Below the pieces are notes generated by a model. It was not told the DNA's origin and ran no database searches. It worked only from the letters and a program-made list of their open reading frames with translations. A program made the translations under genes and the position numbers. From Zestosphaera tikiterensis (GTDB lineage: Archaea; Thermoproteota; Thermoprotei_A; Sulfolobales; NBVN01): 32,000 nt of DNA. The first letter of the stretch is position 1. Every line of letters starts with the position of its first letter. Below, in pieces: positions 5,927 to 21,281 of the stretch. The DNA lies in NCBI GenBank assembly GCA_003056265.1, contig NBVN01000001.1:150001-182000 (forward strand). Reading direction: 5' to 3'.

Positions 5927-6565
5927 TTAAAATGCTTTAAGTACATGTAGTGGAATAATTCTCTTTATTGATTTGAGGTGAGTTACATGGTATGTGGTTC
6001 TTGGCGGAAGAACTATATTTTCGGAAGTGACTTTATATACGTCTTGTTCATGTAGTTTTGGCATTATAATGCAAGTGTTGTATGAGAAGCAAACGTCTTT
6101 ATTCGAAGGAAGTTTGTACAGCATCGATAACGGGTTTTTATTAATAGTAAACTCCTTCATAGTTAAGTAGAAATCTATTTGATCAACACCTACTCTATAT
6201 ATGTCGTCATCAAATTTCACATATACTTCACTAGTACCGTGTTTAACAGAGTGAAGGAGTTCGTTGAAAAATCTCTTAGGATTTTCGCTAGCGTTAACGT
6301 CGTTAGACACATGCATCCAGCTATTAATAAATTTAATATCCTCTCCATAGTCGGCTTCCACTACAGGTACTTGCTTAAATCCAAGCATCTTTAGAGCGTG
6401 AAATCTATGATGACCGTCGATTATTACGTTTTTTACCTTATCGACGATTATCGGTTTAAATATATAACCGACTTTTAGCATAGATACTAAGATATTCTTC
6501 ATTCTATCATATTCGATTTCCTCATGAGGTATTAAATCATTTATTGATTTAAGTACTATCTTCAC
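5927..6565 (-). CDS. ParB/sulfiredoxin-fold domain protein (SerK-like free-amino-acid-kinase candidate), last gene of the cobamide operon
   Basis: The N-terminal pattern LIPHEEIEYDRMKNILVSMLKVGYIFKPIIVDKVKNVIIDGHHRFHALKMLGFKQVPVV is the ParB N-terminal/Srx-like motif (DGHHR). GTG start at 6565 lies 12 nt after the cbiB stop and is preceded by GAGGTAGG (SD-like). Three hand-counted 60-nt lines gave 35%, 35% and 28% GC, which appears lower than the neighbouring genes. Confidence 0.6.
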   Translation of the reverse strand: MKIVLKSINDLIPHEEIEYDRMKNILVSMLKVGYIFKPIIVDKVKNVIIDGHHRFHALKMLGFKQVPVVEADYGEDIKFINSWMHVSNDVNASENPKRFFNELLHSVKHGTSEVYVKFDDDIYRVGVDQIDFYLTMKEFTINKNPLSMLYKLPSNKDVCFSYNTCIIMPKLHEQDVYKVTSENIVLPPRTTYHVTHLKSIKRIIPLHVLKAF

Positions 6566-7551: not shown

Positions 7552-8325
7552 CTATATCGTTACAGAAAGCGTTAGAAGACTCAACGTCCTCAACAATTCG
7601 TATGTAAAGCCCATGACATCCCCCGTTACAAATCCTAATCTATGCTTTGAATCTCTATAAGAGAAAAGACACACAATAATAGTTAAGGTCAGCACTGTTA
7701 AGATTTGAGGAAATATCTTCGCATAAGAAACAGTAAGTAAAAATGCTACTGAGCTATATAGAGTTGCGTTGATCGCAACGTTCTTAAAAGATTTCGCATA
7801 CTTAGAAAACATATGGCCAAGACCCATATATGGCTCCTCCTTACCTATGACCGCAATGATATACATGGATTCAGCAGCAGAGACGTATACGAAAATCAAA
7901 ATTAACGTAAGCTCAGGAACTCCCAAAGCAACTAGCTTATTTAAAGAGATATAGTTTGCCATAAGGGATAACGTAAGTATAACTACGGAGAATGTGCCTC
8001 TCCTAGGATCCTTCATTATCTTTAAGGCTTCTTCACCTCTTTTATGAGATCCTATAACGTCAAGGTAATCACAATATCCATCCATGTGAATCCCTCCAGT
8101 TATAGCTATATGAGTAACTAGGCACAGAATGGCTATCATATCCGTGGGTAGCTCAAAAACGCTTAAGACGTTAAGTACTAGTCCAACAACACCTCCTTCA
8201 AACAACCCGATTAGAGGAACTAAGTAGAAGACCTTAGCACCAGCTTCAATATCCCCTTCGCCAGTGGGTATGGTTGTAAGGAAAGAAAGTAGAGACCTAA
8301 CACCTCTTGCTACTAAGTTATTCAT
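7552..8325 (-). CDS. cobS: Adenosylcobinamide-GDP ribazoletransferase (cobalamin synthase) CobS
   Basis: Membrane protein with the LSFLTTIP (FLTR.P-like) motif and the HMDGYCDYLD (H.DG..D..D) motif typical of CobS/CobV. I prefer ATG 8325 (MNNLVARG..), which forms an 8-nt ATGAATAA overlap with the cobD stop. The longer ORF to 8394 would overlap cobD by 77 nt. Confidence 0.85.
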   Translation of the reverse strand: MNNLVARGVRSLLSFLTTIPTGEGDIEAGAKVFYLVPLIGLFEGGVVGLVLNVLSVFELPTDMIAILCLVTHIAITGGIHMDGYCDYLDVIGSHKRGEEALKIMKDPRRGTFSVVILTLSLMANYISLNKLVALGVPELTLILIFVYVSAAESMYIIAVIGKEEPYMGLGHMFSKYAKSFKNVAINATLYSSVAFLLTVSYAKIFPQILTVLTLTIIVCLFSYRDSKHRLGFVTGDVMGFTYELLRTLSLLTLSVTI

Positions 8326-9409
8326 TGCGATCACCAAAGAGTTTACGCATGACTTCAATGAAGCGGTCGTTGTCGTGTTTACTTCTGATAGCAACCCTAA
8401 AGAAGTATTTTGTTAAAGGAGTGTAAGATGAAGCATCTCTAACGTAAATATTATATTTCATTAACATGTTGTTCATCTCCTCAGCTATAAACTTGTGACT
8501 TCGCACTAAGAGATATGGAGCGTAGGATCTATATACGACGAATCTCATATACTTTAAATGCGACGTAACCCTACTCCTTTCAAGGACTATATACCTCCTG
8601 GAAGTTTCCAGAAACTCCTTCATATCGTCTCTAAACCTACTAAGCAATTCTATAAACACGTGGTTAGCTATCGAGTTCACATTCCATGGTTGCCTATATA
8701 GGTCTAAAATCCTTGAAAGCTTACCACATACATGCATAAAGCCCATTCTAAGACCTGGTACGGAAAAAGACTTCGTTAAGCTCCTCACAACAACTATGTT
8801 ATCGTATTCTTCAACGAGGTGTAAGGCATTTTCTCGGAATTTTTCAGAGAGGTCCATAAAAGCTTCGTCAACAAATATGAGGCTTTCTCTAAATGATTCA
8901 GCTATTTCCCTTACATACTTAACTTCAATAAAACTTCCTGTTGGATTATTCGGATTCGATAGAAGTATTACTGACTTCCTAGCTATGTTGCTCGATATTG
9001 AGAGTAGCGGTTCTAACGGGAATATGAAGGCATCCATATTCTCGATATAATGAATAGAAGTCAACCGCACCCCTAACGCATAAGACGCCTCTCTATAATC
9101 ACCGAATGTAGGCTCAACCACTATGAGGTTTCTTGGTCTATATACGGCTAATACTATGTATAAAGCCTCGGCAGCACCGTTTAATGGAATTACGCACTGC
9201 TCTTTTATGTTGTAGAATTCTGCTAAAGCTTTCTTAAGATCGCTGTATTCATAGTCTGGGTACTTAATGATAGTATCTACGTTATCCTTAATTACCCTCT
9301 TAAGAATGTCAATTAAATGTTTCGGTGGTCCAAGAGGGTTTACAGGAACGGAGAAATCTAAAACGTTTTCAGCTACCCTACCGCCGTGGTATCTATTCAA
9401 AGGCATCAC
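8318..9409 (-). CDS. cobD: L-threonine-O-3-phosphate decarboxylase CobD (PLP-dependent, class I/II aminotransferase fold)
   Basis: YHGGR...LDFSVPVNPLGPP, YPDYEY, LSNPNNPTG, the PLP-lysine block RSLTKSFSVPGLRMGF and the C-terminal FFRVAIRSKHDNDRF all parallel Salmonella CobD (HGGN..LDFSANINPLG, SLTK, YYRVAIRS..N.RL). The operon context fits. Confidence 0.85.
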   Translation of the reverse strand: MMPLNRYHGGRVAENVLDFSVPVNPLGPPKHLIDILKRVIKDNVDTIIKYPDYEYSDLKKALAEFYNIKEQCVIPLNGAAEALYIVLAVYRPRNLIVVEPTFGDYREASYALGVRLTSIHYIENMDAFIFPLEPLLSISSNIARKSVILLSNPNNPTGSFIEVKYVREIAESFRESLIFVDEAFMDLSEKFRENALHLVEEYDNIVVVRSLTKSFSVPGLRMGFMHVCGKLSRILDLYRQPWNVNSIANHVFIELLSRFRDDMKEFLETSRRYIVLERSRVTSHLKYMRFVVYRSYAPYLLVRSHKFIAEEMNNMLMKYNIYVRDASSYTPLTKYFFRVAIRSKHDNDRFIEVMRKLFGDRNE

Positions 9410-9410
9410 C

Positions 9411-9962
9411 TTAGGCGGTTAACATGCCTTGTCTGCATAAACGTTCAACTATCTCCAAGTCACTCGGGGTATCTACATCTATGGCTTTACTGGAATCGTA
9501 AGCAATATTCGACCATGACCCACCACATCCCTTAAATAGCGAGATCCCTATAAGTTCTTCTACACCATTCTTAAGTATCGTCATAGTTACGACGTCGCCG
9601 TCTGTTTTCAAGGCCTTCACCGTAAAATCCTCTATCACAGACGTATACGTGAATACATCTCCAGACACGACAAGAGTTGGTTTTGGTAGCGAATATATTA
9701 AAAGCGATAGATCTTCAACGTAATCCTCACCTAAAGTCTCTACGCATTCAACATACAACCTACTACATAACTTAGTAATTACAGCAAAGCCAGACGTATG
9801 TTTCGATATAGCTATAACAACACATCCACACAAGGGTTTTACGACATCAATGACGTGCTCTATTAACGGCTTTCCACATACGTTAACTACTACCTTACTT
9901 GGAGAACCGTATCTAGAACCCCTACCTCCAGCCATAATAAGACATACTGGTATTTTAAACAT
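9411..9962 (-). CDS. cobY: Adenosylcobinamide-phosphate guanylyltransferase CobY (archaeal NTP-transferase type)
   Basis: N-terminal nucleotidyltransferase loop IMAGGRGSRYG. Size is about 183 aa. Its position between cbiZ and cobD fits. I prefer ATG 9962 (MFKIPV..), which forms an ATGTTTAA overlap with the upstream stop. Confidence 0.7.
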   Translation of the reverse strand: MFKIPVCLIMAGGRGSRYGSPSKVVVNVCGKPLIEHVIDVVKPLCGCVVIAISKHTSGFAVITKLCSRLYVECVETLGEDYVEDLSLLIYSLPKPTLVVSGDVFTYTSVIEDFTVKALKTDGDVVTMTILKNGVEELIGISLFKGCGGSWSNIAYDSSKAIDVDTPSDLEIVERLCRQGMLTA

Positions 9963-11046
9963 CTTCAGAACTACCTCGGACGTAGTCATATAATAGAGTA
10001 TATAAAGATCCTAGGAGAGCTGATATGATATCATCTTCAAAAGTGCCGAAGATTCCATGCTTAAGAATCTTACTTTCTTTTAATCGCTCCACCCAGTACA
10101 TAGAGAATAAACCCTTTAGTCCGGCTACATATGTGGCGAGAGCCATGCCAATGATTTCATCAGCCACTACCTTAGGTGAGTCCCTGGCGAATTCCTCCTC
10201 ACTAACGTTTGGTATTGTCCCCACAATTCCGTGGAGTTCGAGCTCTCTCGCTGCTATGATGAAGCTCCATGTGTTTGGATCGCCTAGAATCTTACGTAAT
10301 ATAATCCTCGCAATCTCTACAGCTTTTTCCTCAGACACATTAGGTATAGGCATATACCTGTAAAGATCTCTAAACATATTTAAAAACTCGTCCTTGCCTA
10401 GCCCGGTTAAGTAGTTAAACATCTTGTCTTCGTCACGTAGTGCTTTAGATACGATCATCTTATGAACAGTTTTAGCTATAGCGTTCCCAATAGTTGTCGC
10501 CATACCAGCGAACAAAATCTCTTCATTCATGTTCAACGGCTTTAAAACAGCTATGGCATCGGTGACGGTTCCTGAGGATCTAGTTCTACATCTAAGCATG
10601 ATATCATTGGAAGCTAAGCATTTAGCTTCGGCAACGGTTCTCAATAGATCTACCATAGCATTATTCGTTAACGGTTGCCGCACCGCCACAGCAATGTTTA
10701 TTGTTGATATTGTCATAGGTGTAAACACGTTTGTTTCTAAGCATACAGGCGGTTCTAAACCTACGGATATAAACACATCAGCACTTAAGTCATCTATCCT
10801 AATATGGTTGAAGTTATCTATTGACGTAGCCGTTATAAACACTACGGCGTTTTCAACACCTACTTCTTTAACTACGGATCTGTAATAATCAGCTAAGTTC
10901 TTAACATTGAAGTCCTTAGGGATAAATTTAAAAATTATATTCTCTACATAACCGTTATTAGACACTACAGGCACCGTCGACACGACCTTCATAGGGTTCG
11001 AAAACTCTACTATGACAGTATCATTATCAATCTTACTTACTCTCAT
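9955..11046 (-). CDS. cbiZ: Fusion protein: adenosylcobinamide amidohydrolase CbiZ (N-terminal) plus PgpA-like alpha-ribazole-5'-phosphate phosphatase CobZ (C-terminal)
   Basis: The N-terminal ~200 aa (..TINIAVAVRQPLTNNAMVDLLRTVAEAKCLA...SSGTVTDAIAV) matches the CbiZ pattern. The C-terminal ~150 aa carries DEIIGMALATYVAG and GIFGTFEDDIISALLGSLYTLL. These resemble the PgpA blocks DEFIGMWITL and GGMGIMIDDIVAGVISAGILY. I prefer ATG 11046 (MRVSKID) because it leaves 71 bp for the divergent promoters. The ORF-track start is 11088. Confidence 0.7.
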   Translation of the reverse strand: MRVSKIDNDTVIVEFSNPMKVVSTVPVVSNNGYVENIIFKFIPKDFNVKNLADYYRSVVKEVGVENAVVFITATSIDNFNHIRIDDLSADVFISVGLEPPVCLETNVFTPMTISTINIAVAVRQPLTNNAMVDLLRTVAEAKCLASNDIMLRCRTRSSGTVTDAIAVLKPLNMNEEILFAGMATTIGNAIAKTVHKMIVSKALRDEDKMFNYLTGLGKDEFLNMFRDLYRYMPIPNVSEEKAVEIARIILRKILGDPNTWSFIIAARELELHGIVGTIPNVSEEEFARDSPKVVADEIIGMALATYVAGLKGLFSMYWVERLKESKILKHGIFGTFEDDIISALLGSLYTLLYDYVRGSSEDV

Positions 11047-11117
11047 GCTAATCTGCCAAGATATTAGTAAACACAGACTTTTAACCATATGCTTAACTAG
11101 ATAGGCTGGGGGTCCTC

Positions 11118-12218
11118 ATGCGTGACATAGGGGTTGTAGATCTGTATGGATGCGCTGATAACCTTATCAATGAAATCCCGAATAGATTTCCGCAAGCTAT
11201 ATATTTCATAGCAAATACTAAAGTATCTACGATATCGGGAATAAGCATAGCTGGTGAAAACCCCGAGGCAACACTCTATACCCCAGCACTAGATGTTGAA
11301 TACTTAGTCTATGGAGAACCTAGAAGCGGCCCGTTACCCGTTACTCCAGAAGGCATTCCAACACCGGCTATAATCACTAGAGTGGCGTTAAACCTTCTTG
11401 CCATACCATTCATAATCGTTGATGTCGGTAGTTATATAGATCCAAGAATTCCACATATAGACATACCTGGAAAGATCATCGGCGGGAGAATAGATGTTGA
11501 AGATGCCCTACCAATAGAAAACGCTCGCTTACTGTTCAATTATTCAAAAACGTTGGGGATGATGTTAGGATCTAGCAAAACCACTATAGTCGTTGGTGAA
11601 TCAATGCCCGGCGGAACCACAACTGCTATGGCTATAATGGAATCACTAGGTTATAAAGCTATCGGGAAGGTCAGTAGTGCGTCTCCATCAAACCCACACG
11701 AGATTAAAAAGAAGGTATTCGCGGATGCTGTTAAAAGATCTGCTGTTGATATACCCATAGATGATGTTTATAAAGCTGTAGCGTTGTTCGGTGATCCTCT
11801 ACACATATCTATAGCAGGTTTCGTTAGTGGAGCTATTGAGAAGGGCTCTGTGGTTTTATTAGCTGGAGGTACACAGATGTGTTCAGTTGCAGCTATCCTT
11901 AAAAGACTTGGATTAACCGCAAGAGGTAAGATCGCTATAGCCACAACTAAGTGGATTGTTGAGGATTTCTCATCCGATATAAGAGGGCTTGTGAAAGATA
12001 TAGCGCCGGAAATACCCATAATATATACAAAACTAAGCTTCTCTAATTCTCGCTTCAATGGCCTTAAAGCATACGAAAACGGATACGTAAAAGAAGGCGT
12101 AGGTGCTGGAGGTACCGCAGTGCTATCCCATCTATATGGGCATGTCAATATAGACGTTCTATCATCTGAAGTTGAGAAGGAGTATAGTAGGATTGTGGAC
12201 GTAGCTAAAGGTAGGTGA
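11118..12218 (+). CDS. cobT: Archaeal-type nicotinate-nucleotide--dimethylbenzimidazole phosphoribosyltransferase CobT (UPF0284 family)
   Basis: SGISIAGENPEATLYTPALDVEYL, PEGIPTPAIITR, GESMPGGTTTAMA, LAGGTQM and VKEGVGAGG match the conserved blocks of MJ1598-type archaeal CobT. It is divergent from the cbiZ operon. Confidence 0.85.
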   Translation: MRDIGVVDLYGCADNLINEIPNRFPQAIYFIANTKVSTISGISIAGENPEATLYTPALDVEYLVYGEPRSGPLPVTPEGIPTPAIITRVALNLLAIPFIIVDVGSYIDPRIPHIDIPGKIIGGRIDVEDALPIENARLLFNYSKTLGMMLGSSKTTIVVGESMPGGTTTAMAIMESLGYKAIGKVSSASPSNPHEIKKKVFADAVKRSAVDIPIDDVYKAVALFGDPLHISIAGFVSGAIEKGSVVLLAGGTQMCSVAAILKRLGLTARGKIAIATTKWIVEDFSSDIRGLVKDIAPEIPIIYTKLSFSNSRFNGLKAYENGYVKEGVGAGGTAVLSHLYGHVNIDVLSSEVEKEYSRIVDVAKGR

Positions 12219-12221
12219 CGT

Positions 12222-12842
12222 ATGAAGGTAGCTATGGTGTCAGGCGGGAAGGACTCCATATATGCGCTTCTGCTTTATGGTGCTGTAGATTTAGGCGTTA
12301 TGCTCGTATACGAATTCCCTAGGCCGAGTCCACACCTCTTGAATATTGGTAAGAGTGTTGAGACGTTCTTATTGATGAACATACCGCTCATCGTCGTTAA
12401 GCTTAATAAAGGGAGGGAGAAGGTTGAAACAATAGAGGCTCTGAGGAAGTTAGGAGTTGATGTTATAGTAGCTGGGGATGTTTACATAAGCGATCACCTA
12501 ACGTATATGCAGTCCATCGCAGATGAAGTAGGTGCGAAGCTTGTAGAGCCTTTATGGAGTTTGGATCCCATCGAAATACTTTATAAGGAGATGGAGTACG
12601 GTATTAACGCATTATTCATAGGTGGTGTGAGCACGTTATTTAACTGGATTGGGAAGGAACTCAACGCTGGTAATGTAGGCGAGTTTATAGAGTACGCTAA
12701 GAAGATCGGTATAGACCCTCTAGGTGAAAAAGGTGAGTATCATACACTCGTTACATATACGCCGAGACATAAGCAAAGGGTTCAATATGAGATTGTGAGG
12801 ATTGATGAGTTTAACGGTTACTTCATTGCTAGGGTGATATGA
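12222..12842 (+). CDS. DUF71/COG2102 PP-loop ATP pyrophosphatase (MJ0570/Dph6-like; possibly the B12-salvage-associated subfamily)
   Basis: N-terminal PP-loop VSGGKDS and C-terminal GEKGEYHTLV (GE.GE.HT). ATG lies 3 nt after the cobT stop, with AGGTGA as SD overlapping that stop. Confidence 0.75.
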   Translation: MKVAMVSGGKDSIYALLLYGAVDLGVMLVYEFPRPSPHLLNIGKSVETFLLMNIPLIVVKLNKGREKVETIEALRKLGVDVIVAGDVYISDHLTYMQSIADEVGAKLVEPLWSLDPIEILYKEMEYGINALFIGGVSTLFNWIGKELNAGNVGEFIEYAKKIGIDPLGEKGEYHTLVTYTPRHKQRVQYEIVRIDEFNGYFIARVI

Positions 12843-13648
12843 TGGAAGTAGCGAACATGCCATGCCATATCTACGAGAAGCTTCTTATAGATAGAATAGC
12901 TGACGTTATAAGAAACACTGAGTGCGATTGCATAGCTTTAAGCGGGGGTATAGACACCTCACTTATAGCTGCTATATCTGTTAAAGTAGTTAATCATATA
13001 CCTAAAGCCTTAGTCGCATACTATAAGAACGGCATTCCAAGAGACCTTACGTACGCTTTACACGTAGCTAAAGTACTCAGTCTTGACATAGATTTTATAG
13101 AAATAGACGATAAGTACATCACTGAAATACTACCTGTAATATCGGAGATTGCTAAAAAAGGAGGGCATGAAGACTATATAGAGATTAGAAACGACATCGT
13201 ATTCTATGCAATCCTAGAGAAGGCTAGAAATAACTGTAAATGTATATACACAGGCTCTGGAGGTGATGAAGTGTTTTCAGGCTATTCATTTATGCACGCA
13301 CAATTGCTAGAAAACGAGATTGACGAGAAAAGGAGGGCATGGGCCTACGGCAGATATCCTGAAAAGGAGATATCAAAGTTAATAAACGTTAATATAGTAA
13401 CGCCGTATTTAGATCGAAAGGTATTAGAATTAGCGTTATCTATACCCGTAAGATGTCTACGAACAACTGTTCTCAGAGGAAAGGAAATCTTAAGAAACGC
13501 GTTAGAGGACATGAATTTAAGCGTGATAGCCGATAGAGCTAAAACACCAGCAGAAGCTGGAGCGGGAACAGATATCATAGACAACAATTACCTCATTAGG
13601 ATTAACTCGCAAATCACTCACTCGGGGGTTGTGGATGGATGTTATTAA
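12839..13648 (+). CDS. Asparagine-synthetase-like PP-loop amidoligase, synthetase domain only (no Ntn glutaminase domain)
   Basis: ALSGGIDTSLIA (SGG.D.S PP-loop), YTGSGGDEVFSGY (compare AsnB GEGADELFGGY), PYLDRKVLELALSIP and GKEILRNAL. At 269 aa it lacks the N-terminal glutamine amidotransferase domain. ATGA start/stop overlap with the DUF71 gene. Confidence 0.7.
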   Translation: MMEVANMPCHIYEKLLIDRIADVIRNTECDCIALSGGIDTSLIAAISVKVVNHIPKALVAYYKNGIPRDLTYALHVAKVLSLDIDFIEIDDKYITEILPVISEIAKKGGHEDYIEIRNDIVFYAILEKARNNCKCIYTGSGGDEVFSGYSFMHAQLLENEIDEKRRAWAYGRYPEKEISKLINVNIVTPYLDRKVLELALSIPVRCLRTTVLRGKEILRNALEDMNLSVIADRAKTPAEAGAGTDIIDNNYLIRINSQITHSGVVDGCY

Positions 13649-13708
13649 TAAAGTTGAACGTTTAAAACGAGTTTTAAACCCTCGCGTTTTCGAAGCCTTA
13701 AAAATGTT

Positions 13709-13725
13709 CTCGTTTTCGAGTTTTT
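13709..13725. terminator. Mini-hairpin CTCG-TTTT-CGAG followed by a T5 run, in the convergent gap between the AsnB-like gene and pyrE
   Basis: Seen directly: CTCGTTTTCGAG (13709-13720) then TTTTT. Related copies are AAAACGAG at 13664-13671 and CTCGCGTTTTCGAAG at 13681-13695. Oligo-T tracts are the usual archaeal termination signal. Confidence 0.3.
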
Positions 13726-14317
13726 AAACTTGCTGGTATTTTCTAATGTATTGTGTTAATTCTCTATACGTTGTTGCATCTATATATCCTTCGTTAACTA
13801 ATGTTTCGAATATTTCCTCAGCTGTTGTGAGGTAATGGTATTTAAGTCCTAAACCATCCACTCTTTTCTGAGCTCCTTGACATCGATCAACCACTACTAA
13901 AACCCCCTTAGGTCTAGCGCCAACCTCAACTAAAGCTTTGAAAGCTCTTTCTAAAGATTCACCCGTCGTTGCTACGTCATCAACTATTAACGCTTTACGT
14001 CCGGTTACATCGCCTTCAACGAAGCTTCGAGTTCCGTGGTCTTTCCTCTCCACTCGTACGTAAGCCATGGGCTTGCTCATATGTGAAGCTATATAAGCAG
14101 CTAGAGCTATACCGGAGGTTGCGACGCCAACTAAGGTCTCATAGTCTTCAGACTTTACTTTGTCGACGGCTTCCTTAACGATTAACTTCATTAGGTCTGG
14201 ATGGCTGTACATAACCCTTAAGTCTATGTAGAACGGGCTTTCAATACCTGAACTAAGTATGAACCTACCCAACTTCACTATGCCTCTCTTGTAGAACTCA
14301 ATCGCTAACTCACGCAT
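13724..14317 (-). CDS. pyrE: Orotate phosphoribosyltransferase
   Basis: PRPP-binding motif ALIVDDVATTGESL, FILSSGIESPFYIDLR at the N-terminus, and a typical size of 197 aa. It overlaps the pyrF 3' end by 13 nt. Confidence 0.9.
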   Translation of the reverse strand: MRELAIEFYKRGIVKLGRFILSSGIESPFYIDLRVMYSHPDLMKLIVKEAVDKVKSEDYETLVGVATSGIALAAYIASHMSKPMAYVRVERKDHGTRSFVEGDVTGRKALIVDDVATTGESLERAFKALVEVGARPKGVLVVVDRCQGAQKRVDGLGLKYHYLTTAEEIFETLVNEGYIDATTYRELTQYIRKYQQV

Positions 14318-14985
14318 TCCTTAATCGCCTCCTCCTGCTTAAGGACTATGTCATGGAAGGCTTTAATCGGGTCTGCTGCAGAGGTAATCGCCCTACCGAC
14401 TATCTCGTAGTCCGCTCCAGCACATATGCCTACTCCAGGCGGAGCTCCTTGAAAACCTACCCCAGGCGTTAAAATCTTAAGCTTATCGCCTGCTAAAGCC
14501 CTCACACGCTTAACGACGTCAGGTCTTGTAGCTGGAGCTACAACACCCCACACACCAGCTTTAATAGAGAGCTCAACCAACTCGTTTAAGTGCTTATCCA
14601 TAAACTCTAGAGAGCCTTTATGACTCATTGAAACCACGGTAATCAACTTTATGCCTAACTCCTTAGACTTAAGCGCTAATTTACCTACGCCGTCTTCATA
14701 ACCTACGAAAGCGTGGGCTATTACCCCATTGACTTTAGTTTTACTTAAACCTTCAAGAACGTTAACCATGATATCCCCTATGTCGGCAAGCTTTAAATCG
14801 GCTATAAGTAAGCCGTCGTAATCTCTAAACACTTCGTTTAACTTCCCTAAACCAACACGTAAGGTTAGAGGAAGCCCGACTTTAAAACCTTCCGCTAAGT
14901 CTTTTAAAGACGTATATCTCTGTTTCACCCAATCTAACGGGTTCACACCTTCAGGTGGGTCTAAAGCTACGATTACTTTACCCAA
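14305..14985 (-). CDS. pyrF: Orotidine-5'-phosphate decarboxylase
   Basis: KVIVALD, the catalytic ADLKLADIG block and GADYEIVGRAI. I prefer TTG 14985 (M-GKVIVALD, 226 aa), which has a TATA-like AAATTTTATAAG at 15013-15024. The ORF-track start ATG 15045 adds an odd W-rich 20-aa extension but cannot be excluded. Confidence 0.85.
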   Translation of the reverse strand: MGKVIVALDPPEGVNPLDWVKQRYTSLKDLAEGFKVGLPLTLRVGLGKLNEVFRDYDGLLIADLKLADIGDIMVNVLEGLSKTKVNGVIAHAFVGYEDGVGKLALKSKELGIKLITVVSMSHKGSLEFMDKHLNELVELSIKAGVWGVVAPATRPDVVKRVRALAGDKLKILTPGVGFQGAPPGVGICAGADYEIVGRAITSAADPIKAFHDIVLKQEEAIKECVS

Positions 14986-15051
14986 ATGCCCACTAAATAA
15001 ATGTAAGATAAGCTTATAAAATTTACTCCGTAACCACCACAGCATCTGGTT

Positions 15052-15831
15052 TTAATATATAACCTCAATAGGTAACACGACTTTCCTATTATTCACGTCA
15101 ACTATCCTTACCTTAACTTTATACACAGACTCTATTAAGTCCTCTCTGAAGACATCCTCGGGTTTTCCAGCCGCGATTATTTCGCCATTCGACATAAGTA
15201 TTGCTTTATCGGCGTATGTTGACGCTAGGTATAGATCGTGGATAGCTATTAATGAAGCTAAACCGCGGGTCTTAACCACTTTGTTGACGTAGGAGAGTAC
15301 TTCAAGCCTGTACCTTATGTCTAGGAAGGCGGACGGCTCGTCAAGCAGTAGAACCTTCGGTTGCTGTATTAAAGCTCTAGCTATGATTACCCTCTGCAAC
15401 TCACCACTACTTAACTGACTTAACTTCTTACTCATTAAATGCTCTATATTTAACTCCTTAACCACGCCCTCAATGAACTTCAGGTCTTCATAACTTTCGA
15501 ATATCTGAAGAGGTTTTTGATGAGGGTATCTCCCAGTAGCTAAGAACTCAGCCACGGTAGTTGGTAGGGTGTCGTTAACTCGAGCGTTAGCGTATGCGAA
15601 AACCTTAGCTAACTCCCTAGCGTCGTAATTTCTAGAGTCCCTACCATCTATGTAAACCGCCCCACTCTTAGGTTTAAGCATGGAAGCCACAACCTTAAGT
15701 AATGTTGTCTTACCGGCGCCGTTAGGCCCTACTACGTAAACAACCTCACCCTCGCTTACTTCAAAACTAACGTTCTTAAGAGTGGGGATTGAGTTGTAAG
15801 CGAAGGAAACATTCAAAACCTTAATCTTCAC
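15052..15831 (-). CDS. ABC transporter ATP-binding protein, FepC/BtuD (iron-siderophore/cobalamin) type
   Basis: Walker A GPNGAGKTT, signature LSSGELQR, Walker B LLLDEPSAFLD and H-loop AIHDL. 4-nt overlap with the upstream permease gene. Confidence 0.9.
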   Translation of the reverse strand: MKIKVLNVSFAYNSIPTLKNVSFEVSEGEVVYVVGPNGAGKTTLLKVVASMLKPKSGAVYIDGRDSRNYDARELAKVFAYANARVNDTLPTTVAEFLATGRYPHQKPLQIFESYEDLKFIEGVVKELNIEHLMSKKLSQLSSGELQRVIIARALIQQPKVLLLDEPSAFLDIRYRLEVLSYVNKVVKTRGLASLIAIHDLYLASTYADKAILMSNGEIIAAGKPEDVFREDLIESVYKVKVRIVDVNNRKVVLPIEVIY

Positions 15832-16868
15832 CTACTACCACCTCTTAAAATTAGGTAGGCTAGGAAAGGCGCCCCCATAACGCTCGTAACTATACCTACA
15901 GGCAACTCACTCAACCCTAGAGGCGTTAACGAAATAAGCCTAACGCATACGTCAGCTAAAGTCAGTAGCAAACCCCCAACCACAAAAGCTGTAGGTACTA
16001 CATACCTATGGTCCGAACCGACTAAGGCTCTAGTTATGTGTGGTACGGCGAGGCCTAGGAAGCCTATAATGCCTAAGACCGCGACCACAGACGCCGTTAG
16101 TAAGCTGGATATAAACGCGGAAAGTGTGGAGACGTACTTCGGGTTGAAGCCTAACTGCTTAGCGTGTTCGTCGCCGTAAATGTACGCGTTAAGCATTTTA
16201 GGAAGGCCTAAAAACAACACAGCAGCTGTAGCCAACACCGTCGGTATTGCTATGTAGTTTATTTCCTCAAGCAGCACATACGACGTCGAACCCATGAGTA
16301 GGAAGACGTAGGGCGTGCGTAAAACACCCTGCACTAAGTAAAGAAGTATATGTGAAATACCTGAGAAAAACGACGTTACAGCTATACCAGCTAAGATTAG
16401 TGAATGGCTTGAATTACCGGCAAGCCTGCTAAGCGTTAAGGTTAGGAAATACCCGATTAAAGCGCCTGCGAAAGCTATTAATATCATAACCCCTCTGTAA
16501 ACAACTAACGAGGAACTAACGAGGAACGTAAGTGCTACGGCGGTTAAAGCTGTTGACGATAGACCTAATATGTAAGGTTCAGCTAGAGGATTTCTAGTTA
16601 TTGCCTGCGTTAAAACACCCGCAACACCTAACGCTGAACCACCGAAAAATGAAGCTAGGGTTCTAGCCACCCTTATCTTAGCTATTGATAAAGTGCCTTC
16701 ATCACATCCTCTTAAGAAGCTTAAAACGCAGGGAAGAACATCCCATGAAAACGTTTTAGAAGTGCCTAACGAGAGGGAGGTAGATAGGGTTAAGATAGCT
16801 AGTATAGATAGTGTTAAAACAGCGGTTAAAAAACGCTTAACTGATTTTCTATAGATCTCCAAACTCAT
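15828..16868 (-). CDS. FecCD/BtuC-family ABC transporter permease
   Basis: 346-aa polytopic protein with FecCD-type blocks (NPLAEPYILGLSS, GIIGFLGLAVPHITRALVGSDHR, PVGIVTSVMGAPFLAYLI). Confidence 0.9.
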   Translation of the reverse strand: MSLEIYRKSVKRFLTAVLTLSILAILTLSTSLSLGTSKTFSWDVLPCVLSFLRGCDEGTLSIAKIRVARTLASFFGGSALGVAGVLTQAITRNPLAEPYILGLSSTALTAVALTFLVSSSLVVYRGVMILIAFAGALIGYFLTLTLSRLAGNSSHSLILAGIAVTSFFSGISHILLYLVQGVLRTPYVFLLMGSTSYVLLEEINYIAIPTVLATAAVLFLGLPKMLNAYIYGDEHAKQLGFNPKYVSTLSAFISSLLTASVVAVLGIIGFLGLAVPHITRALVGSDHRYVVPTAFVVGGLLLTLADVCVRLISLTPLGLSELPVGIVTSVMGAPFLAYLILRGGSR

Positions 16869-18022
16869 TAGCTAGGTACCTCTCCCTCAAGTACTGAGAT
16901 ACTGGAGACGGGGGTTGTCTCGAATTGAGTTATGTTGATTACGTCACTTCTTTGAATGAATCCAAAGATTTCCGGATGTATTAACTTAGCCAGTATTTCA
17001 AGAGCTACGTTAACTCTAGGTCCAGGCCTGCTGAGCACGTCATCGGCTTCACCCGTTAATAGATATATCCTCCCGTTCTTGAAGGCTTTAGTACCTTTTA
17101 TAGGTGATCCAGCTATCTCCTCATACACGGCTTTAGGATCTAACCCCGTAGCCGTTATTACAATGATGTCCGGATCCTGCGTTACTATATATTCATAGCT
17201 TAGTTGAGGCCACCCAACGTATTGCTCAGCCACGTTAACCCCGCCGGCTGTCTTTATAACCCACCCTATGAATGTGTTGCCCCCTGAGCTGAATATACCC
17301 CAAGACGGCGGGCCTACTAGGTGCAGGACTTTAGGTTTGGAAGCATTTACTTCATTAAGTTTTTGAGTTATCGAGTTCAGCGTGTTTTGAACTTCAGCGA
17401 TTAACTTACTCGACCTATCCAGTACGTCGAAAACCACAGCTATTAACTGAATGTCGCTGAATATATCGTTAACGTCTTGAGCGGATGTGGATTTAACGTA
17501 TATGACGGTTATACCTAACTCGCTTAACTTATCCTTAAGTCTAATATGTGGTGGCGTGCCTGACGAAGCTATTACTAAATCCGGCTTTAAAGACGCTATT
17601 TTTTCTATGTCCGGATTCCAAAAACCGCCTACGGTCTTCACCTTACCTTCGTTAATCAACTCAACGACTTTCGGGGGATAGTTGCTGAAGTCATCAACGC
17701 CAACGACCCTATCGTCAAGCCCTAAAGCAAATAGTATTTCAGTTATGCTTGGAGCTAAGGATACAACCCTTTCAGGAGGTCTGTTAATTGTTATAGACCT
17801 ACCTAAAGAATCAACTACGGTAAGGGGGTATTTCCCAACCACTGTGGATGTAGCTGTGGTTACCTCACGTGAAGTAACTACGGTTGTGACGTATTTAGTG
17901 GTTGTAATGAGTGTGGTTGCTGGGTTGATTAAGTTAATTCCGTAGCCTATAGCTACACCTACTAAAAGAACCGCAACAACCAAAAATTTCGTGTTGGGTT
18001 TCACTTTGGACACCCTATCCAA
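16868..18022 (-). CDS. Substrate-binding protein, Peripla_BP_2 (BtuF/FepB-like), membrane-anchored with a Thr/Val-rich linker
   Basis: N-terminal TM anchor (FLVVAVLLVGVAIGYGI), T/V-rich linker (TTLITTTKYVTTVVTSREVTTATSTVV), then PERVVSLAPSITEILFALGLDDRVVGV, typical of BtuF-like binders. TTG start 18022 (GTG 18013 and 18004 are alternatives). Confidence 0.85.
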   Translation of the reverse strand: MDRVSKVKPNTKFLVVAVLLVGVAIGYGINLINPATTLITTTKYVTTVVTSREVTTATSTVVGKYPLTVVDSLGRSITINRPPERVVSLAPSITEILFALGLDDRVVGVDDFSNYPPKVVELINEGKVKTVGGFWNPDIEKIASLKPDLVIASSGTPPHIRLKDKLSELGITVIYVKSTSAQDVNDIFSDIQLIAVVFDVLDRSSKLIAEVQNTLNSITQKLNEVNASKPKVLHLVGPPSWGIFSSGGNTFIGWVIKTAGGVNVAEQYVGWPQLSYEYIVTQDPDIIVITATGLDPKAVYEEIAGSPIKGTKAFKNGRIYLLTGEADDVLSRPGPRVNVALEILAKLIHPEIFGFIQRSDVINITQFETTPVSSISVLEGEVPS

Positions 18023-18134
18023 TACGCGTAAGAGTTAATAAGCTTTACGTAGCATAAAGCGTTAAAAACTTACATGAAACGTTAGTAAGGCATGTCTTTA
18101 ATAGAGGTCTACAGAATTAATGTGGTTAAACCAA

Positions 18135-19115
18135 CTATTGAATAACGCATTTACGTTCTATCGTATCACGTAAAATCGAAGCAGCTTCTTCGGGCGTGTC
18201 ATCATATGTGAAGTTTCCAGCACCGCTTTCCACGCCTGCCGCATATTTTAACCTACCGCTGGTTCTATACATACCGTAAATCTCTATATGTAGGTGGTAG
18301 TAGCTGTAATGTCCCCGCATAGGTGCTTGATGTAGGACCATCGTGTACGGCATGGGGTTTTCAAAGATGTTTTTAACCCCACACAACACTTTCTTTAAGA
18401 CGTATGCTAAGTCTTCAGCCATAACTTCATTTACTTGGTTTAAAGTATTGATGTGTTTTAACGGGTATATATGAACTTCGAAAGGCCAGTGAGCGTAGTA
18501 AGGTATGAACGCAATCCAATGGCTGCTTTTTAAGATAATCCTTTCCTTATCGCTTACCTCGGCGTCTATTAAATCACAGAATAAACACCTCCCATATCTT
18601 TTGAAGTGATTTAAAGCGTTTGTAAGTTCCCTCCTTACTTTAGTAGGTATGAATGGAAGCACGTATATCTGGGAGTGCGGGTGTGTGAGTGAAACGCCGA
18701 CTTCCTTCCCTTTATTTCGGAAGTAGAGGAAGTAAACAGATCTCTTATCGCTTAACTCCTCAATATATTTATCTATAACGTATGTGATAACCTTACGTAT
18801 TTCTTCAACAGTTAAATCGCTGAGATCATCTAAATCGTGTTTCGGCGTCTCAACAACTATGTAGTTCTTACCGTATGAGGGGGCGTTCTTAAAGAATTTA
18901 TGGGGTCTTAACTTAGGGGGTTCCTCACTTAATATAGGGTATTTATTATTTAATATCAGTACGTCCCACCCGTGACCCGTCTCTGGAGTGCCGGGGCAGA
19001 AGGGGCAGAAACCTTCAGGGTGCCAAGGCCTTAACTCACGAACGTTAGAAACCATAACCCATTCCCCCAGTACAGGATCCCAACGTAGTTCCTGAACTAT
19101 ACGGTCGCTACTCAC
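18135..19115 (-). CDS. galT: Galactose-1-phosphate uridylyltransferase (HIT superfamily GalT)
   Basis: Zn-site CPFCPG and active-site HPHSQIY (H-x-H-x-Q). GTG start is preceded by GGTGA, which overlaps the galK stop. Confidence 0.85.
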   Translation of the reverse strand: MSSDRIVQELRWDPVLGEWVMVSNVRELRPWHPEGFCPFCPGTPETGHGWDVLILNNKYPILSEEPPKLRPHKFFKNAPSYGKNYIVVETPKHDLDDLSDLTVEEIRKVITYVIDKYIEELSDKRSVYFLYFRNKGKEVGVSLTHPHSQIYVLPFIPTKVRRELTNALNHFKRYGRCLFCDLIDAEVSDKERIILKSSHWIAFIPYYAHWPFEVHIYPLKHINTLNQVNEVMAEDLAYVLKKVLCGVKNIFENPMPYTMVLHQAPMRGHYSYYHLHIEIYGMYRTSGRLKYAAGVESGAGNFTYDDTPEEAASILRDTIERKCVIQ

Positions 19116-19121
19116 GTATAA

Positions 19122-20369
19122 TCACCACCGCATCACCTGCAGGCCTGAATCAACTGAGGTGATCCAGCCTCTAGACGCGCAACAACTTAAAACTTTATTT
19201 AACGCGTTAACAGCTACGTCTTTAGAGTTTGTTAAAGCTATTACTGAACCTCCTAACCCGGCACCGGAGAGCTTAGCTCCATAAACCCCACTTTCAAGTA
19301 AGGTATTAACGATCTTATCTATTTGAGGTAAGCTAACGTCATATAACTCACTAAGCAACCTATGTTGATATGTCATGACGGCACCTATGAGCCTTAAGCT
19401 AACGTCGTTACGTTCTAGCATGTCAATCACTTCGGAAGGTTTAAGCCTTAAGACCTTTGAAACTTCACTTACATCAACTTCCAAACCTTTAAGGATCTTA
19501 AGCGCTAGTAATGTGGATCTATGCATTCTTAACGTAAAGACTATCCTCTTAGACGCTATGTAATCTACTTTAGTGAGGTAAGGCATTAACTCCTCCTCAG
19601 ACAACTCGTCCCAGCGAGGCTCCCAATACTTTAAACCTAATTTACTCTTAAGCGATTCAGGTAGGTTTAACTTCAGAAGCTCTTCCAACCCTCTATTCAA
19701 TTCTAGCTGTCTCTTAGGGTGTATATCCGCCGTGGAATGTTTTATGCCGGAATCAACAACTATGAAAACACCCTTACTGAAGTTCAGCCTCTCAACGTCG
19801 TACGGAGGTTTAGTATTTATTGAGAGTATGCCTCCGTAAGCTGATGCGTATTGATCCAACCTACCGCAAGGTATGTTCATAATCTTGTTTTCAGCTTCGA
19901 AAGCTATTTCAGCCACTTCCTTAACGTTAAGACCTAAGCTAAGTAGCTCGTTTAAAGCGCCTACAACACCAACCTCTAAAGCAGCACTGCTTCCTAAGCC
20001 AGCGGCTATAGGGACGTCGCTATCTATGTAGATTTCGCAAGGCTTAATGAGGCATCCCCGCCTCATTAAAGCAAGGATTGAAGCCCTAACGTAATCCCCA
20101 AACCATCCACTCCCAACTAACTTAAGGTTCCTTAAGTCAAAACTGTCTGAAAGCCTCAGCGAGTTCGTATAAACCTTAAACCTACCGTCATGGCTATCCC
20201 CTACAGCAACGAAGGTGCGTAAGTTAATAGCTACCGAAACGACGGGTAAGCCCTTATAGTCTTGATGTGTGTTGAGGAAGTCTAACCTGCCTGGAGCAGA
20301 AGCTATTAAACATGGCTCTTTATTAAAAACTTCTTTAAACCCAGAGGCTAAGGAATTAACGTCAACCAC
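19122..20369 (-). CDS. galK: Galactokinase (GHMP kinase)
   Basis: Galactokinase signature APGRLDFLNTHQDYKG (GR.N.IGEH.DY-like), GHMP motif PIAAGLGSSAALEV and the C-terminal GAKLSGAGLGGSVIAL. GTG start with a TATA-like AAACTATAGTTA about 20 nt upstream. Confidence 0.85.
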   Translation of the reverse strand: MVDVNSLASGFKEVFNKEPCLIASAPGRLDFLNTHQDYKGLPVVSVAINLRTFVAVGDSHDGRFKVYTNSLRLSDSFDLRNLKLVGSGWFGDYVRASILALMRRGCLIKPCEIYIDSDVPIAAGLGSSAALEVGVVGALNELLSLGLNVKEVAEIAFEAENKIMNIPCGRLDQYASAYGGILSINTKPPYDVERLNFSKGVFIVVDSGIKHSTADIHPKRQLELNRGLEELLKLNLPESLKSKLGLKYWEPRWDELSEEELMPYLTKVDYIASKRIVFTLRMHRSTLLALKILKGLEVDVSEVSKVLRLKPSEVIDMLERNDVSLRLIGAVMTYQHRLLSELYDVSLPQIDKIVNTLLESGVYGAKLSGAGLGGSVIALTNSKDVAVNALNKVLSCCASRGWITSVDSGLQVMRW

Positions 20370-20460
20370 TTCAAAGCCCTAACTATAGTTTCATGAAGTT
20401 AGTTATAACGACTATTATAGCAACCCTCAAAACCCAACAGCTTAAATGAGCGGGAATTAA

Positions 20461-21262: not shown

Positions 21263-21281
21263 TATCAACGCCTCTAAAACG

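What the first reader, a model, noticed from the sequence alone, without database searches (positions are those of the whole stretch)
12222..13648. Translationally coupled pair of stand-alone PP-loop adenylating enzymes (DUF71 + glutaminase-less AsnB-like) directly downstream of cobT
The DUF71/COG2102 gene (SGGKDS ... GEKGEYHT) starts 3 nt after the cobT stop, using an AGGTGA that overlaps that stop. The next gene overlaps it by ATGA. That gene is an asparagine-synthetase synthetase domain (SGGIDTS; GSGGDEVFSGY) without the N-terminal glutamine amidotransferase domain.

Both families activate carboxylates by adenylation and then transfer ammonia or an amine. A published comparative-genomics analysis of DUF71 proposed that one subfamily is diphthine-ammonia ligase (Dph6) and that a second, archaeal subfamily is linked to B12 salvage. 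As far as I know the reaction was never established.

Finding it here with a second amidoligase suggests a two-enzyme step acting on corrinoid carboxylates. One possibility is re-amidation of side chains deamidated by heat or acid. Another is processing of salvaged cobyrinic or cobyric-acid-type intermediates, in place of CbiA/CbiP, which are absent from the window.
Basis: inference. Interest (0 to 1): 0.6.

Follow-up and report, generated by a model that had tools for sequence, protein, structure and literature searches.

The report
B12-salvage pair of PP-loop amidoligases
Two tightly coupled ATP-using "carboxylate-to-amide" enzymes sit in the vitamin-B12 scavenging operon of a heat-loving archaeon that cannot make B12 itself. 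Across related archaea they occur only where the normal B12-amidating enzyme CobQ is missing or truncated, so they most likely put amide groups onto scavenged B12 precursors, which nobody has tested.

Summary
The cobT stop is at 12216-12218. The DUF71 gene (12222-12842) starts 3 nt later, behind AGGTGA. The glutaminase-less AsnB-like gene (12839-13648) overlaps it by ATGA.

The genome holds a separate true Dph6, so this DUF71 copy is free for another role. It belongs to NCBIfam TTX_0299 and carries the His signature (EKGEYH) published for the B12-linked DUF71 subgroup.

The genome (93% complete) shows no CobQ, CbiA, CbiC or CbiD, so it looks salvage-only.

- **Conservation:** in 201 genomes of the class, the AsnB-like gene lies beside a second DUF71 copy in at least 31. 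Most of these sit inside cobT-cbiS-cobY-cobD-cobS-cbiB operons.
- **Distribution:** the AsnB-like gene is present in 62 of 69 CbiB+ CobQ- genomes and in 0 of 46 CobQ+ genomes, although most CobQ+ genomes also have CbiZ.
- **Parallel case:** a bacterial contig has a glutaminase-less CobQ half in the same slot, between cbiB and a DUF71.

Best reading (about 50%): ammonia-dependent amidation of corrinoid carboxylates. This is inference; no reaction has been shown.

The DUF71-B12 link was published in 2012. I found no paper on the AsnB-like partner. This scan has already noted the same pair on other DNA (bacteria, methanogens).

The parts
11118..12218 (+). cobT, archaeal NaMN-dependent phosphoribosyltransferase; first gene of the + strand unit
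   Evidence: TIGR00303 298 bits (cut-off 240) and NF003372 397 bits
12213..12218 (+). Shine-Dalgarno-like AGGTGA overlapping the cobT stop codon
   Evidence: Read directly from the sequence
12222..12842 (+). Second DUF71/COG2102 paralogue. A PP-loop ATP pyrophosphatase of the TTX_0299 family with the His-type motif EKGEYH
   Evidence: Invariant in 61 orthologues: SGGK, the P.P.PH..N block, GD, E.P.W and GE.GEYH
12839..12842 (+). ATGA start/stop overlap between DUF71 and the AsnB-like gene
   Evidence: Overlaps or gaps of 4 nt or less in 17 of 22 related pairs
12839..13648 (+). Stand-alone AsnB-type synthetase domain, 269 aa, 'short form'. It has no glutaminase domain and no C-terminal zinc ribbon
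   Evidence: PF00733 82 bits. AF2 model pLDDT 92.6. Best folds are beta-lactam synthetase, AsnB, carbapenam synthetase and human ASNS, TM 0.69-0.75. Conserved residues
9955..11088 (-). cbiS (CbiZ amidohydrolase fused to CobZ phosphatase), divergent from cobT
   Evidence: NF038002 269.5 bits (cut-off 250); PF01955 144.5 bits
9411..9989 (-). cobY-like nucleotidyltransferase
   Evidence: PF12804 42.5 bits; NF045495 57 bits, below its cut-off. Its position in the operon is conserved
8318..9409 (-). cobD-type class I/II aminotransferase-fold decarboxylase
   Evidence: PF00155 134.9 bits. Operon position conserved
7552..8394 (-). cobS, cobalamin-5'-phosphate synthase
   Evidence: PF02654 136 bits
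6578..7546 (-). cbiB, adenosylcobinamide-phosphate synthase
   Evidence: PF03186 242 bits at G000:C8:156686-157480
5927..6565 (-). SerK/SbnI-like ParB-fold protein. In relatives it lies between cbiB and DUF71
   Evidence: NF053625 50 bits over its N-terminal 85 residues. Operon position
15052..18022 (-). btuD, btuC and btuF-like ABC importer genes
   Evidence: ORFs. Homologues flank the salvage operon in relatives

Best explanation
The two genes encode a pair of glutaminase-less PP-loop enzymes that work in cobamide salvage.

Proposed mechanism (inferred):
- Each enzyme adenylates a side-chain carboxylate of an imported, incompletely amidated or deamidated corrinoid.
- Free ammonia then displaces AMP to give the amide.
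- This supplies the amidation that CobQ/CbiP, and perhaps CbiA, provide in B12 producers. The repaired corrinoid can then enter the CbiZ-CbiB-CobY-CobS route.

Shown here: gene structure, family membership, fold, conservation of the pair, its place in salvage operons, and its phyletic pattern against CobQ.

Inferred: the corrinoid substrate, ammonia as the nucleophile, and which side chains each enzyme serves.
For: 1. **This DUF71 copy is not the housekeeping Dph6.**
- The genome's other copy passes the Dph6 model at 221 bits, while this one scores 86.7 against a cut-off of 197.
- It carries His in place of the Dph6 catalytic-site Glu (EKGEYH against EGGE.E).
- It lies in a His-only clade of the family tree.

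2. **The pair is conserved.**
- The AsnB-like gene lies within 1 kb of a second DUF71 copy in at least 31 genomes of the class sample, in both gene orders.
- It does so in 11 more genomes from four further families of the phylum.
- Junctions are mostly overlapping.

3. **The pair sits in salvage operons.**
- The usual arrangement is cobT-cbiS-cobY-cobD-cobS-cbiB-(SerK-like)-DUF71-AsnB-like, often with btuFCD, in families f1, f2, f4, f10 and f11.
- In family f8 the long AsnB-like form directly follows cbiB.

4. **Phyletic pattern in 201 genomes of the class.**
- The AsnB-like gene occurs in 62 of 69 CbiB+ CobQ- genomes, 0 of 46 CobQ+ genomes and 5 of 87 CbiB- genomes.
- The TTX-type DUF71 occurs in 53 of 69 CbiB+ CobQ- genomes and 0 of 46 CobQ+ genomes.
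- At least 31 of the 46 CobQ+ genomes also have CbiZ. The pair therefore tracks lack of CobQ, not salvage as such.
- Within family f4, the one CobQ+ genome (G172) lacks the pair, while 12 of 13 genomes of the neighbouring genus have it.

5. **Phylum sample.** A strong AsnB-like match occurs in 0 of 8 genomes with a full-length CobQ. It occurs in 16 of 16 genomes whose CobQ match covers only the synthetase half.

6. **Bacterial parallel.** One bacterial contig reads cobT-cobA-cobU-cobS-cobC-cbiB-[293-aa N-terminal half of CobQ, 318 bits, no glutaminase]-DUF71(His). An undoubted corrinoid amidase domain occupies the AsnB-like slot there.

7. **Own genome.** No CobQ, CbiA, CbiC or CbiD was found.

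8. **Catalytic core of the AsnB-like protein.** It keeps the PP-loop, the GGDE block and the Lys of GK..LR that align with catalytic-core residues of AsnB, and it has the AsnB/beta-lactam-synthetase fold.
Against: - No biochemical or genetic test exists; all evidence is comparative.
- The CobQ+ genomes fall into about five lineages, so the exclusivity rests on few independent contrasts. I tallied the counts by hand from tool tables.
- Seven of 69 salvage-type genomes lack the AsnB-like gene, so it is not essential for salvage.
- In bacteria the His-type DUF71 often sits beside BtuB/BtuF with no AsnB-like or CobQ-like neighbour.
- In family f8 the DUF71 lies elsewhere, next to a GNAT gene.
- The lineage with a half-CobQ has the AsnB-like gene but no second DUF71. 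A Nitrosocaldus homologue has no visible B12 context.
- It is not obvious why an organism that imports cobinamide or complete cobamides would need amidation.
- The family's conserved cysteines (C9, C29, C31, C133, C135, C206) and the zinc ribbon of long forms are unexplained. They could point to different chemistry.
Confidence: 0.5

Rival explanations
1. The pair acts on corrinoids in salvage but does something other than ammonia-dependent amidation. Options include ligating another amine, forming or opening a lactam, or taking part in cobamide remodelling. The last is the 2012 proposal that DUF71-B12 replaces bacterial CbiZ in handling pseudo-B12.
For: - The operon and importer context is equally compatible.
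- The 2012 paper reported that DUF71-B12 and CbiZ are anticorrelated in bacteria.
- The His-for-Glu change suggests altered chemistry.
- The closest folds of the AsnB-like protein include lactam-forming enzymes, beta-lactam synthetase and carbapenam synthetase.
Against: - In the class sample, salvage-type genomes carrying the pair generally also have CbiZ, so the pair does not replace it here.
- A PP-loop ATPase acting as an amidohydrolase would be unprecedented; a reviewer of the 2012 paper raised this.
- A generic remodelling step would not explain why CobQ+ genomes that also have CbiZ never carry the pair.
- It would not explain a CobQ synthetase half taking the AsnB-like slot.
Confidence: 0.3
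2. The substrate is not the corrin ring. It could be a small carboxylate linked to nucleotide-loop assembly, such as nicotinate or NaMN from the CobT reaction or a lower-ligand precursor. It could also be a protein of the corrinoid uptake or handling system, by analogy with Dph6 acting on EF-2.
For: - In this window the pair is co-transcribed with cobT, not with cbiB.
- The AsnB-like protein gives weak NAD-synthase matches (22 bits).
- Dph6, the family founder, modifies a protein.
Against: - In most relatives the pair follows cbiB or the SerK-like gene, not cobT.
- CobQ+ producers also need CobT and lower ligands yet lack the pair.
- The CobQ-half parallel points to the corrin side chains.
Confidence: 0.12
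3. These are ordinary housekeeping genes, a redundant diphthine-ammonia ligase and an ammonia-dependent asparagine synthetase, that lie next to cobT by chance.
For: Public annotations call relatives 'diphthine-ammonia ligase' and 'asparagine synthase'.
Against: - The window DUF71 fails the Dph6 model and motif, and a true Dph6 exists elsewhere in the genome.
- The AsnB-like protein scores 68 bits against a cut-off of 267 for asparagine synthase, and only the Arg of AsnB's TTIR motif is kept, and only in short forms.
- Linkage to B12 genes recurs across many families.
Confidence: 0.03

Closest known systems
DUF71-B12 subgroup of DUF71/COG2102 (de Crecy-Lagard et al. 2012, Biol Direct 7:32, PMC3541065; e.g. 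Pyrococcus furiosus PF0295)
   Same: - It is the second, non-Dph6 copy in the genome.
- It has His in place of the Dph6 Glu in the E.GE[FY]H motif.
- It clusters with cbiB and btu genes.
- The paper's Table S1 already lists two DUF71 copies for Ignisphaera aggregans and Pyrolobus fumarii, which are close relatives of this locus.
   Different: - The window protein belongs to the NCBIfam TTX_0299 family, a sister group to the PAB0415-like proteins in my tree.
- The motif reads EKGEYH, not ENGE[FY]H.
- The paper proposed a CbiZ-like role, whereas here CbiZ is present as well.
- The paper's main text does not mention a stand-alone AsnB-like partner.
Dph6, diphthine-ammonia ligase (TIGR03679; structures 2D13 and 3RJZ)
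   Same: Same fold family, same PP-loop SGGKDS and the same likely chemistry: carboxylate adenylation followed by attack of ammonia. About 30-35% alignable.
   Different: It fails the Dph6 model (86.7 bits against 197.3). The motif Glu is replaced by His. The genome has a separate true Dph6. The context is B12 salvage, not translation.
Asparagine synthetase B and its relatives beta-lactam synthetase and carbapenam synthetase (PF00733; 1CT9, 1MBZ, 1Q19)
   Same: Same synthetase-domain fold (TM 0.69-0.75). It shares the PP-loop, the GGDE block and the Lys of GK..LR.
   Different: - It has no N-terminal glutaminase domain and only 269 aa.
- The position of AsnB Glu348 is Ser here; it is Asp or Glu in other family members.
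- Six near-invariant cysteines are absent from AsnB.
- Long forms end in a CPxCG...CxFCG zinc ribbon.
CobQ/CbiP cobyric acid synthase and CbiA a,c-diamide synthase
   Same: This is a proposed functional analogy only: ATP-dependent amidation of corrin carboxylates. The AsnB-like gene sits beside cbiB, as cobQ does in the CobQ+ family f13. It was never found with a full-length CobQ. A glutaminase-less CobQ half occupies its slot in one bacterial operon.
   Different: There is no sequence or fold relationship. CobQ and CbiA are DTBS/MinD-type ATPases that act through acyl-phosphates and have their own glutaminase domains. The pair here is PP-loop (acyl-adenylate) and has no glutaminase.
NH3-dependent NAD synthetase NadE and NMN synthetase
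   Same: Stand-alone PP-loop enzymes that amidate a cofactor carboxylate with free ammonia. They give weak sequence and fold matches.
   Different: The similarity is much lower than to AsnB, and the scores are below the curated cut-offs of the NadE models.

Membership tests
DUF71/COG2102 (PF01902) | Pfam model over the gathering score, and a PP-loop SGGKDS at the N-terminus | tested here: met
   94.5 bits against 23.2. SGGK is invariant in 61 orthologues
Dph6, diphthine-ammonia ligase (TIGR03679) | Score at or above the curated equivalog cut-off of 197.3 bits | tested here: not met
   86.7 bits. The genome's other copy on contig C14 scores 221.4
Dph6, diphthine-ammonia ligase (TIGR03679) | EGG[ED]xE motif with the conserved Glu188 (PF0828 numbering) | tested here: not met
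   The window has GEKGEYHT. The paralogue has GEGGEFET
DUF71-B12 subgroup (2012 paper) | ENGE[FY]H motif with His replacing Glu188 | tested here: met
   EKGEYH. The position of Asn varies (K, R, N, H, Q) among orthologues, while GE.GEYH is invariant
DUF71-B12 subgroup (2012 paper) | Physical clustering with B12 transport or salvage genes | tested here: met
DUF71-B12 subgroup (2012 paper) | Falls in the paper's phylogenetic cluster 2, away from Dph6 | tested here: inconclusive
   One branch (support 96) separates all 38 Glu-type rows from all 94 His-type rows, and the window lies among the His-type rows. No named cluster-2 protein such as PF0295 could be placed in the tree. It is a FastTree tree, not a full ML tree
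NCBIfam NF052347, TTX_0299 putative ATP pyrophosphatase | Score at or above the cut-off of 250 bits | tested here: met
   281.5 bits over the whole model
Asn_synthase domain (PF00733) | Pfam model over the gathering score, PP-loop SGGxD[ST]S, and the AsnB C-terminal-domain fold | tested here: met
   82.3 bits against 21. Foldseek probability 1.00 to 1MBZ, 1CT9 and 1Q19
Asparagine synthase, glutamine-hydrolysing (TIGR01536 / AsnB) | [quoted passage not shown] | tested here: not met
   The protein is 269 aa and its match starts at AsnB residue 231. No GATase family was hit
Asparagine synthase, glutamine-hydrolysing (TIGR01536 / AsnB) | Score at or above the curated cut-off of 267.1 bits | tested here: not met
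   67.9 bits
CobQ/CbiP cobyric acid synthase (TIGR00313) | Homology to the CobQ ATPase and glutaminase domains | tested here: not met
   CobQ and CbiA models did not appear among the listed Pfam and NCBIfam hits for either protein. The relation proposed here is functional only
Corrinoid side-chain amidating enzyme (functional class) | ATP-dependent amide formation on a corrinoid carboxylate | not testable with these tools
   This needs enzyme assays. Only context and phyletic evidence is available

The most novel reading that the evidence does not exclude
The AsnB-like protein and the His-type DUF71 form a previously unrecognised, glutaminase-independent system for amidating corrin side chains. 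It would stand in for CobQ, and possibly CbiA, wherever a full-length CobQ is missing. That would let salvage-only archaea and bacteria use deamidated or incompletely amidated corrinoids. It would add two new enzyme activities to B12 metabolism and settle the function of DUF71-B12, open since 2012.
Probability: 0.4. Interest if true: 0.75.

Novelty: new variant of a known kind. Interest (0 to 1): 0.55.

Why it matters
Most microbes that need B12 scavenge it, and which corrinoid forms they can use shapes microbial communities.

The DUF71-B12 family has been an untested prediction since 2012. This locus and its relatives add three things:
- a conserved AsnB-like partner;
- a sharp negative association with full-length CobQ;
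- a case where a glutaminase-less CobQ half takes the partner's place.

Together these turn a vague 'role in B12 salvage' into a specific, cheap-to-test hypothesis: NH3- and ATP-dependent amidation of corrinoid carboxylic acids. If it holds, genome-based predictions of who can use which corrinoids would need revising.

Tried and rejected
- **Complex prediction.** Complex prediction on DUF71 plus the AsnB-like protein, with alignments A2 and A3, returned no verdict (score 0.22, mark 0.32). I do not use it either way.
- **Full ML tree.** treekit did not finish in two 300-s runs. I used FastTree instead, so supports are SH-like only.
- **The search for related loci on genome contigs.** Only 9 of 80 loci were true relatives.
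- **Naming representatives.** The listing of cluster members gave almost no organism names. PAB0415 is not in the 2012 supplement. I therefore could not show by name that the PAB0415-like clade equals the paper's PF0295 group.
- **RNA elements.** Rfam found no riboswitch or other RNA in the window.
- **Literature.** Searches found no paper on an AsnB-like enzyme in cobamide salvage.
- **Rejected: housekeeping Dph6 or AsnB.** Both fail the curated models.
- **Rejected: replacement of CbiZ.** CbiZ is present alongside the pair.
- **Rejected: activator of the f-carboxylate for CbiB.** CobQ+ genomes run CbiB without the pair.
- **Rejected: corrinoid adenosyltransferase.** PP-loop chemistry cleaves ATP to AMP and PPi, which does not fit.
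Full report
**1. Observation**

- cobT (11118-12218) ends with TGA at 12216-12218, inside an AGGTGA at 12213-12218.
- A 206-aa ORF starts at 12222 with the PP-loop SGGKDS and ends with the motif GEKGEYHT.
- Its TGA overlaps the ATG of a 269-aa ORF (12839-13648) as ATGA.
- The first ORF matches PF01902 (94.5 bits). The second matches PF00733 (82.3 bits) and has no glutamine-amidotransferase match.

The coupling is conserved. Of 22 adjacent pairs in relatives, 12 overlap by 4 or 1 nt and 17 lie within 4 nt, in both gene orders.

**2. Identity of the DUF71 gene**

- NCBIfam places the DUF71 gene in the 'TTX_0299 family putative ATP pyrophosphatase' (281.5 bits, cut-off 250).
- It fails the Dph6 equivalog (86.7 bits against 197.3).
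- The genome has two PF01902 genes. The other, on contig C14, passes the Dph6 model at 221 bits.
- The 2012 comparative paper (PMC3541065) defines Dph6 by EGG[ED]xE and the B12-linked subgroup by ENGE[FY]H. The window has EKGEYH and the paralogue has EGGEFE.
- I built a FastTree tree of 132 rows: representatives from a search of 1.84 billion proteins plus sequences from relatives' loci.
  - One branch (support 96) separates all 38 Glu-type rows from all 94 His-type rows.
  - The window lies in an 18-row clade (support 98) inside a 55-row His-type clade (support 95).
  - That clade also holds PAB0415-like proteins.
- The paper's Table S1 already lists two DUF71 copies for Ignisphaera aggregans and Pyrolobus fumarii.
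- Public names attached to close homologues point to the same organisms.

The DUF71 half of the finding is therefore a member of a family whose B12 link is published but untested.

**3. Identity of the AsnB-like gene**

- The AF2 model is confident (pLDDT 92.6).
- Its best structural matches are the synthetase domains of beta-lactam synthetase, E. coli AsnB, carbapenam synthetase and human ASNS (TM 0.69-0.75).
- Invariant across the family: the PP-loop SGG.D, D69, E115, G.GGDE..GY, GK..LR and R.K.P..G.G. These include the residues that align with the AMP/PPi site and the catalytic Lys of AsnB.
- The position of AsnB Glu348 is Ser in the window. It is Asp or Glu in many relatives.
- Six cysteines absent from AsnB are nearly invariant: C9, C29, C31, C133, C135 and C206.
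- There are two forms.
  - A short form of about 255-300 aa, as here.
  - A long form of 305-380 aa that ends in a CPxCG...CxFCG zinc ribbon.
- Public annotations are generic ('asparagine synthase-related').

**4. Genomic context**

The window holds a complete cobinamide salvage and nucleotide-loop set.
- Minus strand: cbiB, cobS, cobD, cobY and cbiS (CbiZ fused to CobZ).
- Plus strand: cobT, DUF71 and the AsnB-like gene.
- A btuFCD-like importer lies 1.4 kb further on.

The genome is 93% complete. It gave no match to CobQ, CbiA, CbiC or CbiD, so it looks salvage-only.

**5. Conservation in relatives**

- The usual arrangement is cobT-cbiS-cobY-cobD-cobS-cbiB-(SerK-like)-DUF71-AsnB-like, often next to btuFCD. 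It occurs in genomes of families f1, f2, f4, f10 and f11.
  - There the TTX-type DUF71 sits elsewhere, next to a GNAT gene.
  - Some f8 genomes have a divergent His-type DUF71 right after the AsnB-like gene (L050, L051).
- In the phylum sample, 11 more genomes from four further families have the two genes adjacent.
- Named MAG contigs show the same association: Thermoprotei, Thermoproteota, Pyrodictiaceae and Nitrososphaerales contigs carry the pair, and a Hecatellales contig has the AsnB-like gene beside btuF.

**6. Phyletic pattern**

I tallied these counts by hand, which all used the same 201 genomes of the class.

| Genome group | AsnB-like present | TTX-type DUF71 present |
|---|---|---|
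| CbiB+ CobQ- (69) | 62 | 53 |
| CobQ+ (46) | 0 | 0 |
| CbiB- (87) | 5 | 6 |

- Overall, 114 genomes have CbiB and 46 have CobQ.
- At least 31 of the 46 CobQ+ genomes also have CbiZ. The pair therefore tracks lack of CobQ, not salvage capacity.
- Within family f4, the single CobQ+ genome lacks the pair, while 12 of 13 genomes of the other genus carry it.
- In the CobQ+ family f13, cobQ lies about 0.8 kb from cbiB. That is the neighbourhood where f8 genomes place the AsnB-like gene.

In a 121-genome phylum sample, strong AsnB-like matches behave as follows.
- They occur in 0 of 8 genomes with a full-length CobQ.
- They occur in 16 of 16 genomes of one family (f19) whose CobQ match covers only the N-terminal synthetase half (ORFs of 281-324 aa).
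- The f19 genomes have no second DUF71.

The CobQ+ groups amount to about five lineages, so these numbers overstate the independent evidence.

**7. A parallel outside the phylum**

- One bacterial contig reads cobT-cobA-cobU-cobS-cobC-cbiB-[293-aa protein]-DUF71(His).
  - The 293-aa protein matches only positions 2-240 of the 480-position cobyric acid synthase model, at 318 bits.
  - A glutaminase-less corrinoid amidase domain thus occupies the slot that the AsnB-like gene holds here.
- A second contig shows a DUF71 followed by a CbiA-domain fragment.
- Other bacterial His-type DUF71 genes sit beside BtuB/BtuF with neither partner, as the 2012 paper reported.

**8. Interpretation**

The family chemistry is carboxylate adenylation followed by attack of an amine; this is established for Dph6, AsnB and NadE. 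Four further points point the same way: neither protein has a glutaminase domain, the pair sits in salvage operons, it is exclusive of full-length CobQ, and a CobQ half can take the AsnB-like slot.

Together these make ammonia-dependent amidation of corrinoid carboxylates the best-supported reading, at about 0.5.

It remains inference. Open points are:
- why salvagers need amidation;
- which side chains each enzyme serves;
- what the conserved cysteines and the zinc ribbon do;
- why DUF71 and the AsnB-like gene are uncoupled in some lineages.

Thermal deamidation cannot be the general reason, because homologues occur in organisms that are not hyperthermophiles.

**9. Novelty and prior notes**

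- The DUF71-B12 link was published in 2012.
- I found no paper on the AsnB-like partner.
- This scan's earlier notes describe the same two families together in B12 operons of a Dehalococcoidia bacterium, a methanogen and others. One note says the AsnB-like gene takes CobQ's slot. Another says DUF71 itself does not stand in for CobQ.
- My CobQ tallies were made before I read those notes. The slot comparison and the zinc ribbon I checked myself.
- The finding is not new to the scan. It adds a crenarchaeal short form, a quantified exclusivity with full-length CobQ, and the half-CobQ parallel.

Noticed in passing
window 5927-6565 (-): A 212-aa ParB-fold protein lies just downstream of cbiB. Its N-terminus matches the free L-serine kinase SerK (50 bits) and SbnI. 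In relatives it sits between cbiB and DUF71 inside the salvage operon. It is a candidate for the missing archaeal L-threonine (or L-serine) kinase that feeds CobD. The scan already holds this as e1-3150076.
   Followed up: partly
L020 (G027:C1:282000-301000) against the window: G027 is a complete genome of 1,875,953 bp assigned to another family (f4, the Ignisphaera group by public names). It shares 78-80% protein identity over cobT, DUF71 and the AsnB-like gene. Genomes of the window's own family f1 share only 42-56%. This means either transfer of the operon or a quirk of classification.
   Followed up: no
L035:9809-10366 and L036:8306-8875: In family f8 (Caldisphaera group) the TTX-type DUF71 is not in the B12 operon. 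It lies next to a conserved GNAT acetyltransferase gene.
   Followed up: partly
window 12839-13648; alignments A1 and A3: The AsnB-like family has six near-invariant cysteines: C9, C29 and C31 just before the PP-loop strand, C133 and C135 just before the GGDE strand, and C206. Long forms add a C-terminal CPxCG...CxFCG zinc ribbon. The cysteines sit at the N-terminal ends of the two strands, which suggests a metal site or disulfides away from the ATP site.
   Followed up: partly
family f19 genomes, e.g. G215:C1:1369131-1369838 and G307:C6:128869-129678; also L140:6118-6999: All 16 sampled genomes of one family have a CobQ match limited to the N-terminal synthetase half, with no glutaminase half in the same ORF. 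A bacterial salvage operon has the same truncated form. Whether the glutaminase is encoded elsewhere or the enzyme uses free ammonia was not resolved.
   Followed up: partly
L025 and L026 (G034:C1:24500-43500 and 8000-27000): One genome carries two copies of the DUF71/AsnB-like pair about 16 kb apart. One copy follows a full salvage operon. Its DUF71 homology region includes a stop codon (1 stop in L026:9591-10121), so it may be decaying or shorter than its orthologues.
   Followed up: no
L148:4517-8770 and L067:1702-5852: In two Thermoproteota MAG contigs the DUF71/AsnB-like pair is flanked, inside a btu-cbiZ-cobS operon, by three extra genes of unknown role in B12 salvage. These are an ECF-type substrate component, a PfkB-family kinase and a 'Metalloenzyme' superfamily protein.
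   Followed up: no
L142:180-3959: In a contig whose DUF71 clusters with a Bathyarchaeota-annotated protein, the AsnB-like/DUF71 pair follows two MetE-like (Meth_synt_2) genes instead of salvage genes.
   Followed up: no
window 13724-15045 (-): pyrE-like and pyrF genes are wedged between the AsnB-like gene and the btuFCD-like importer. They run head to tail with btuD.
   Followed up: no
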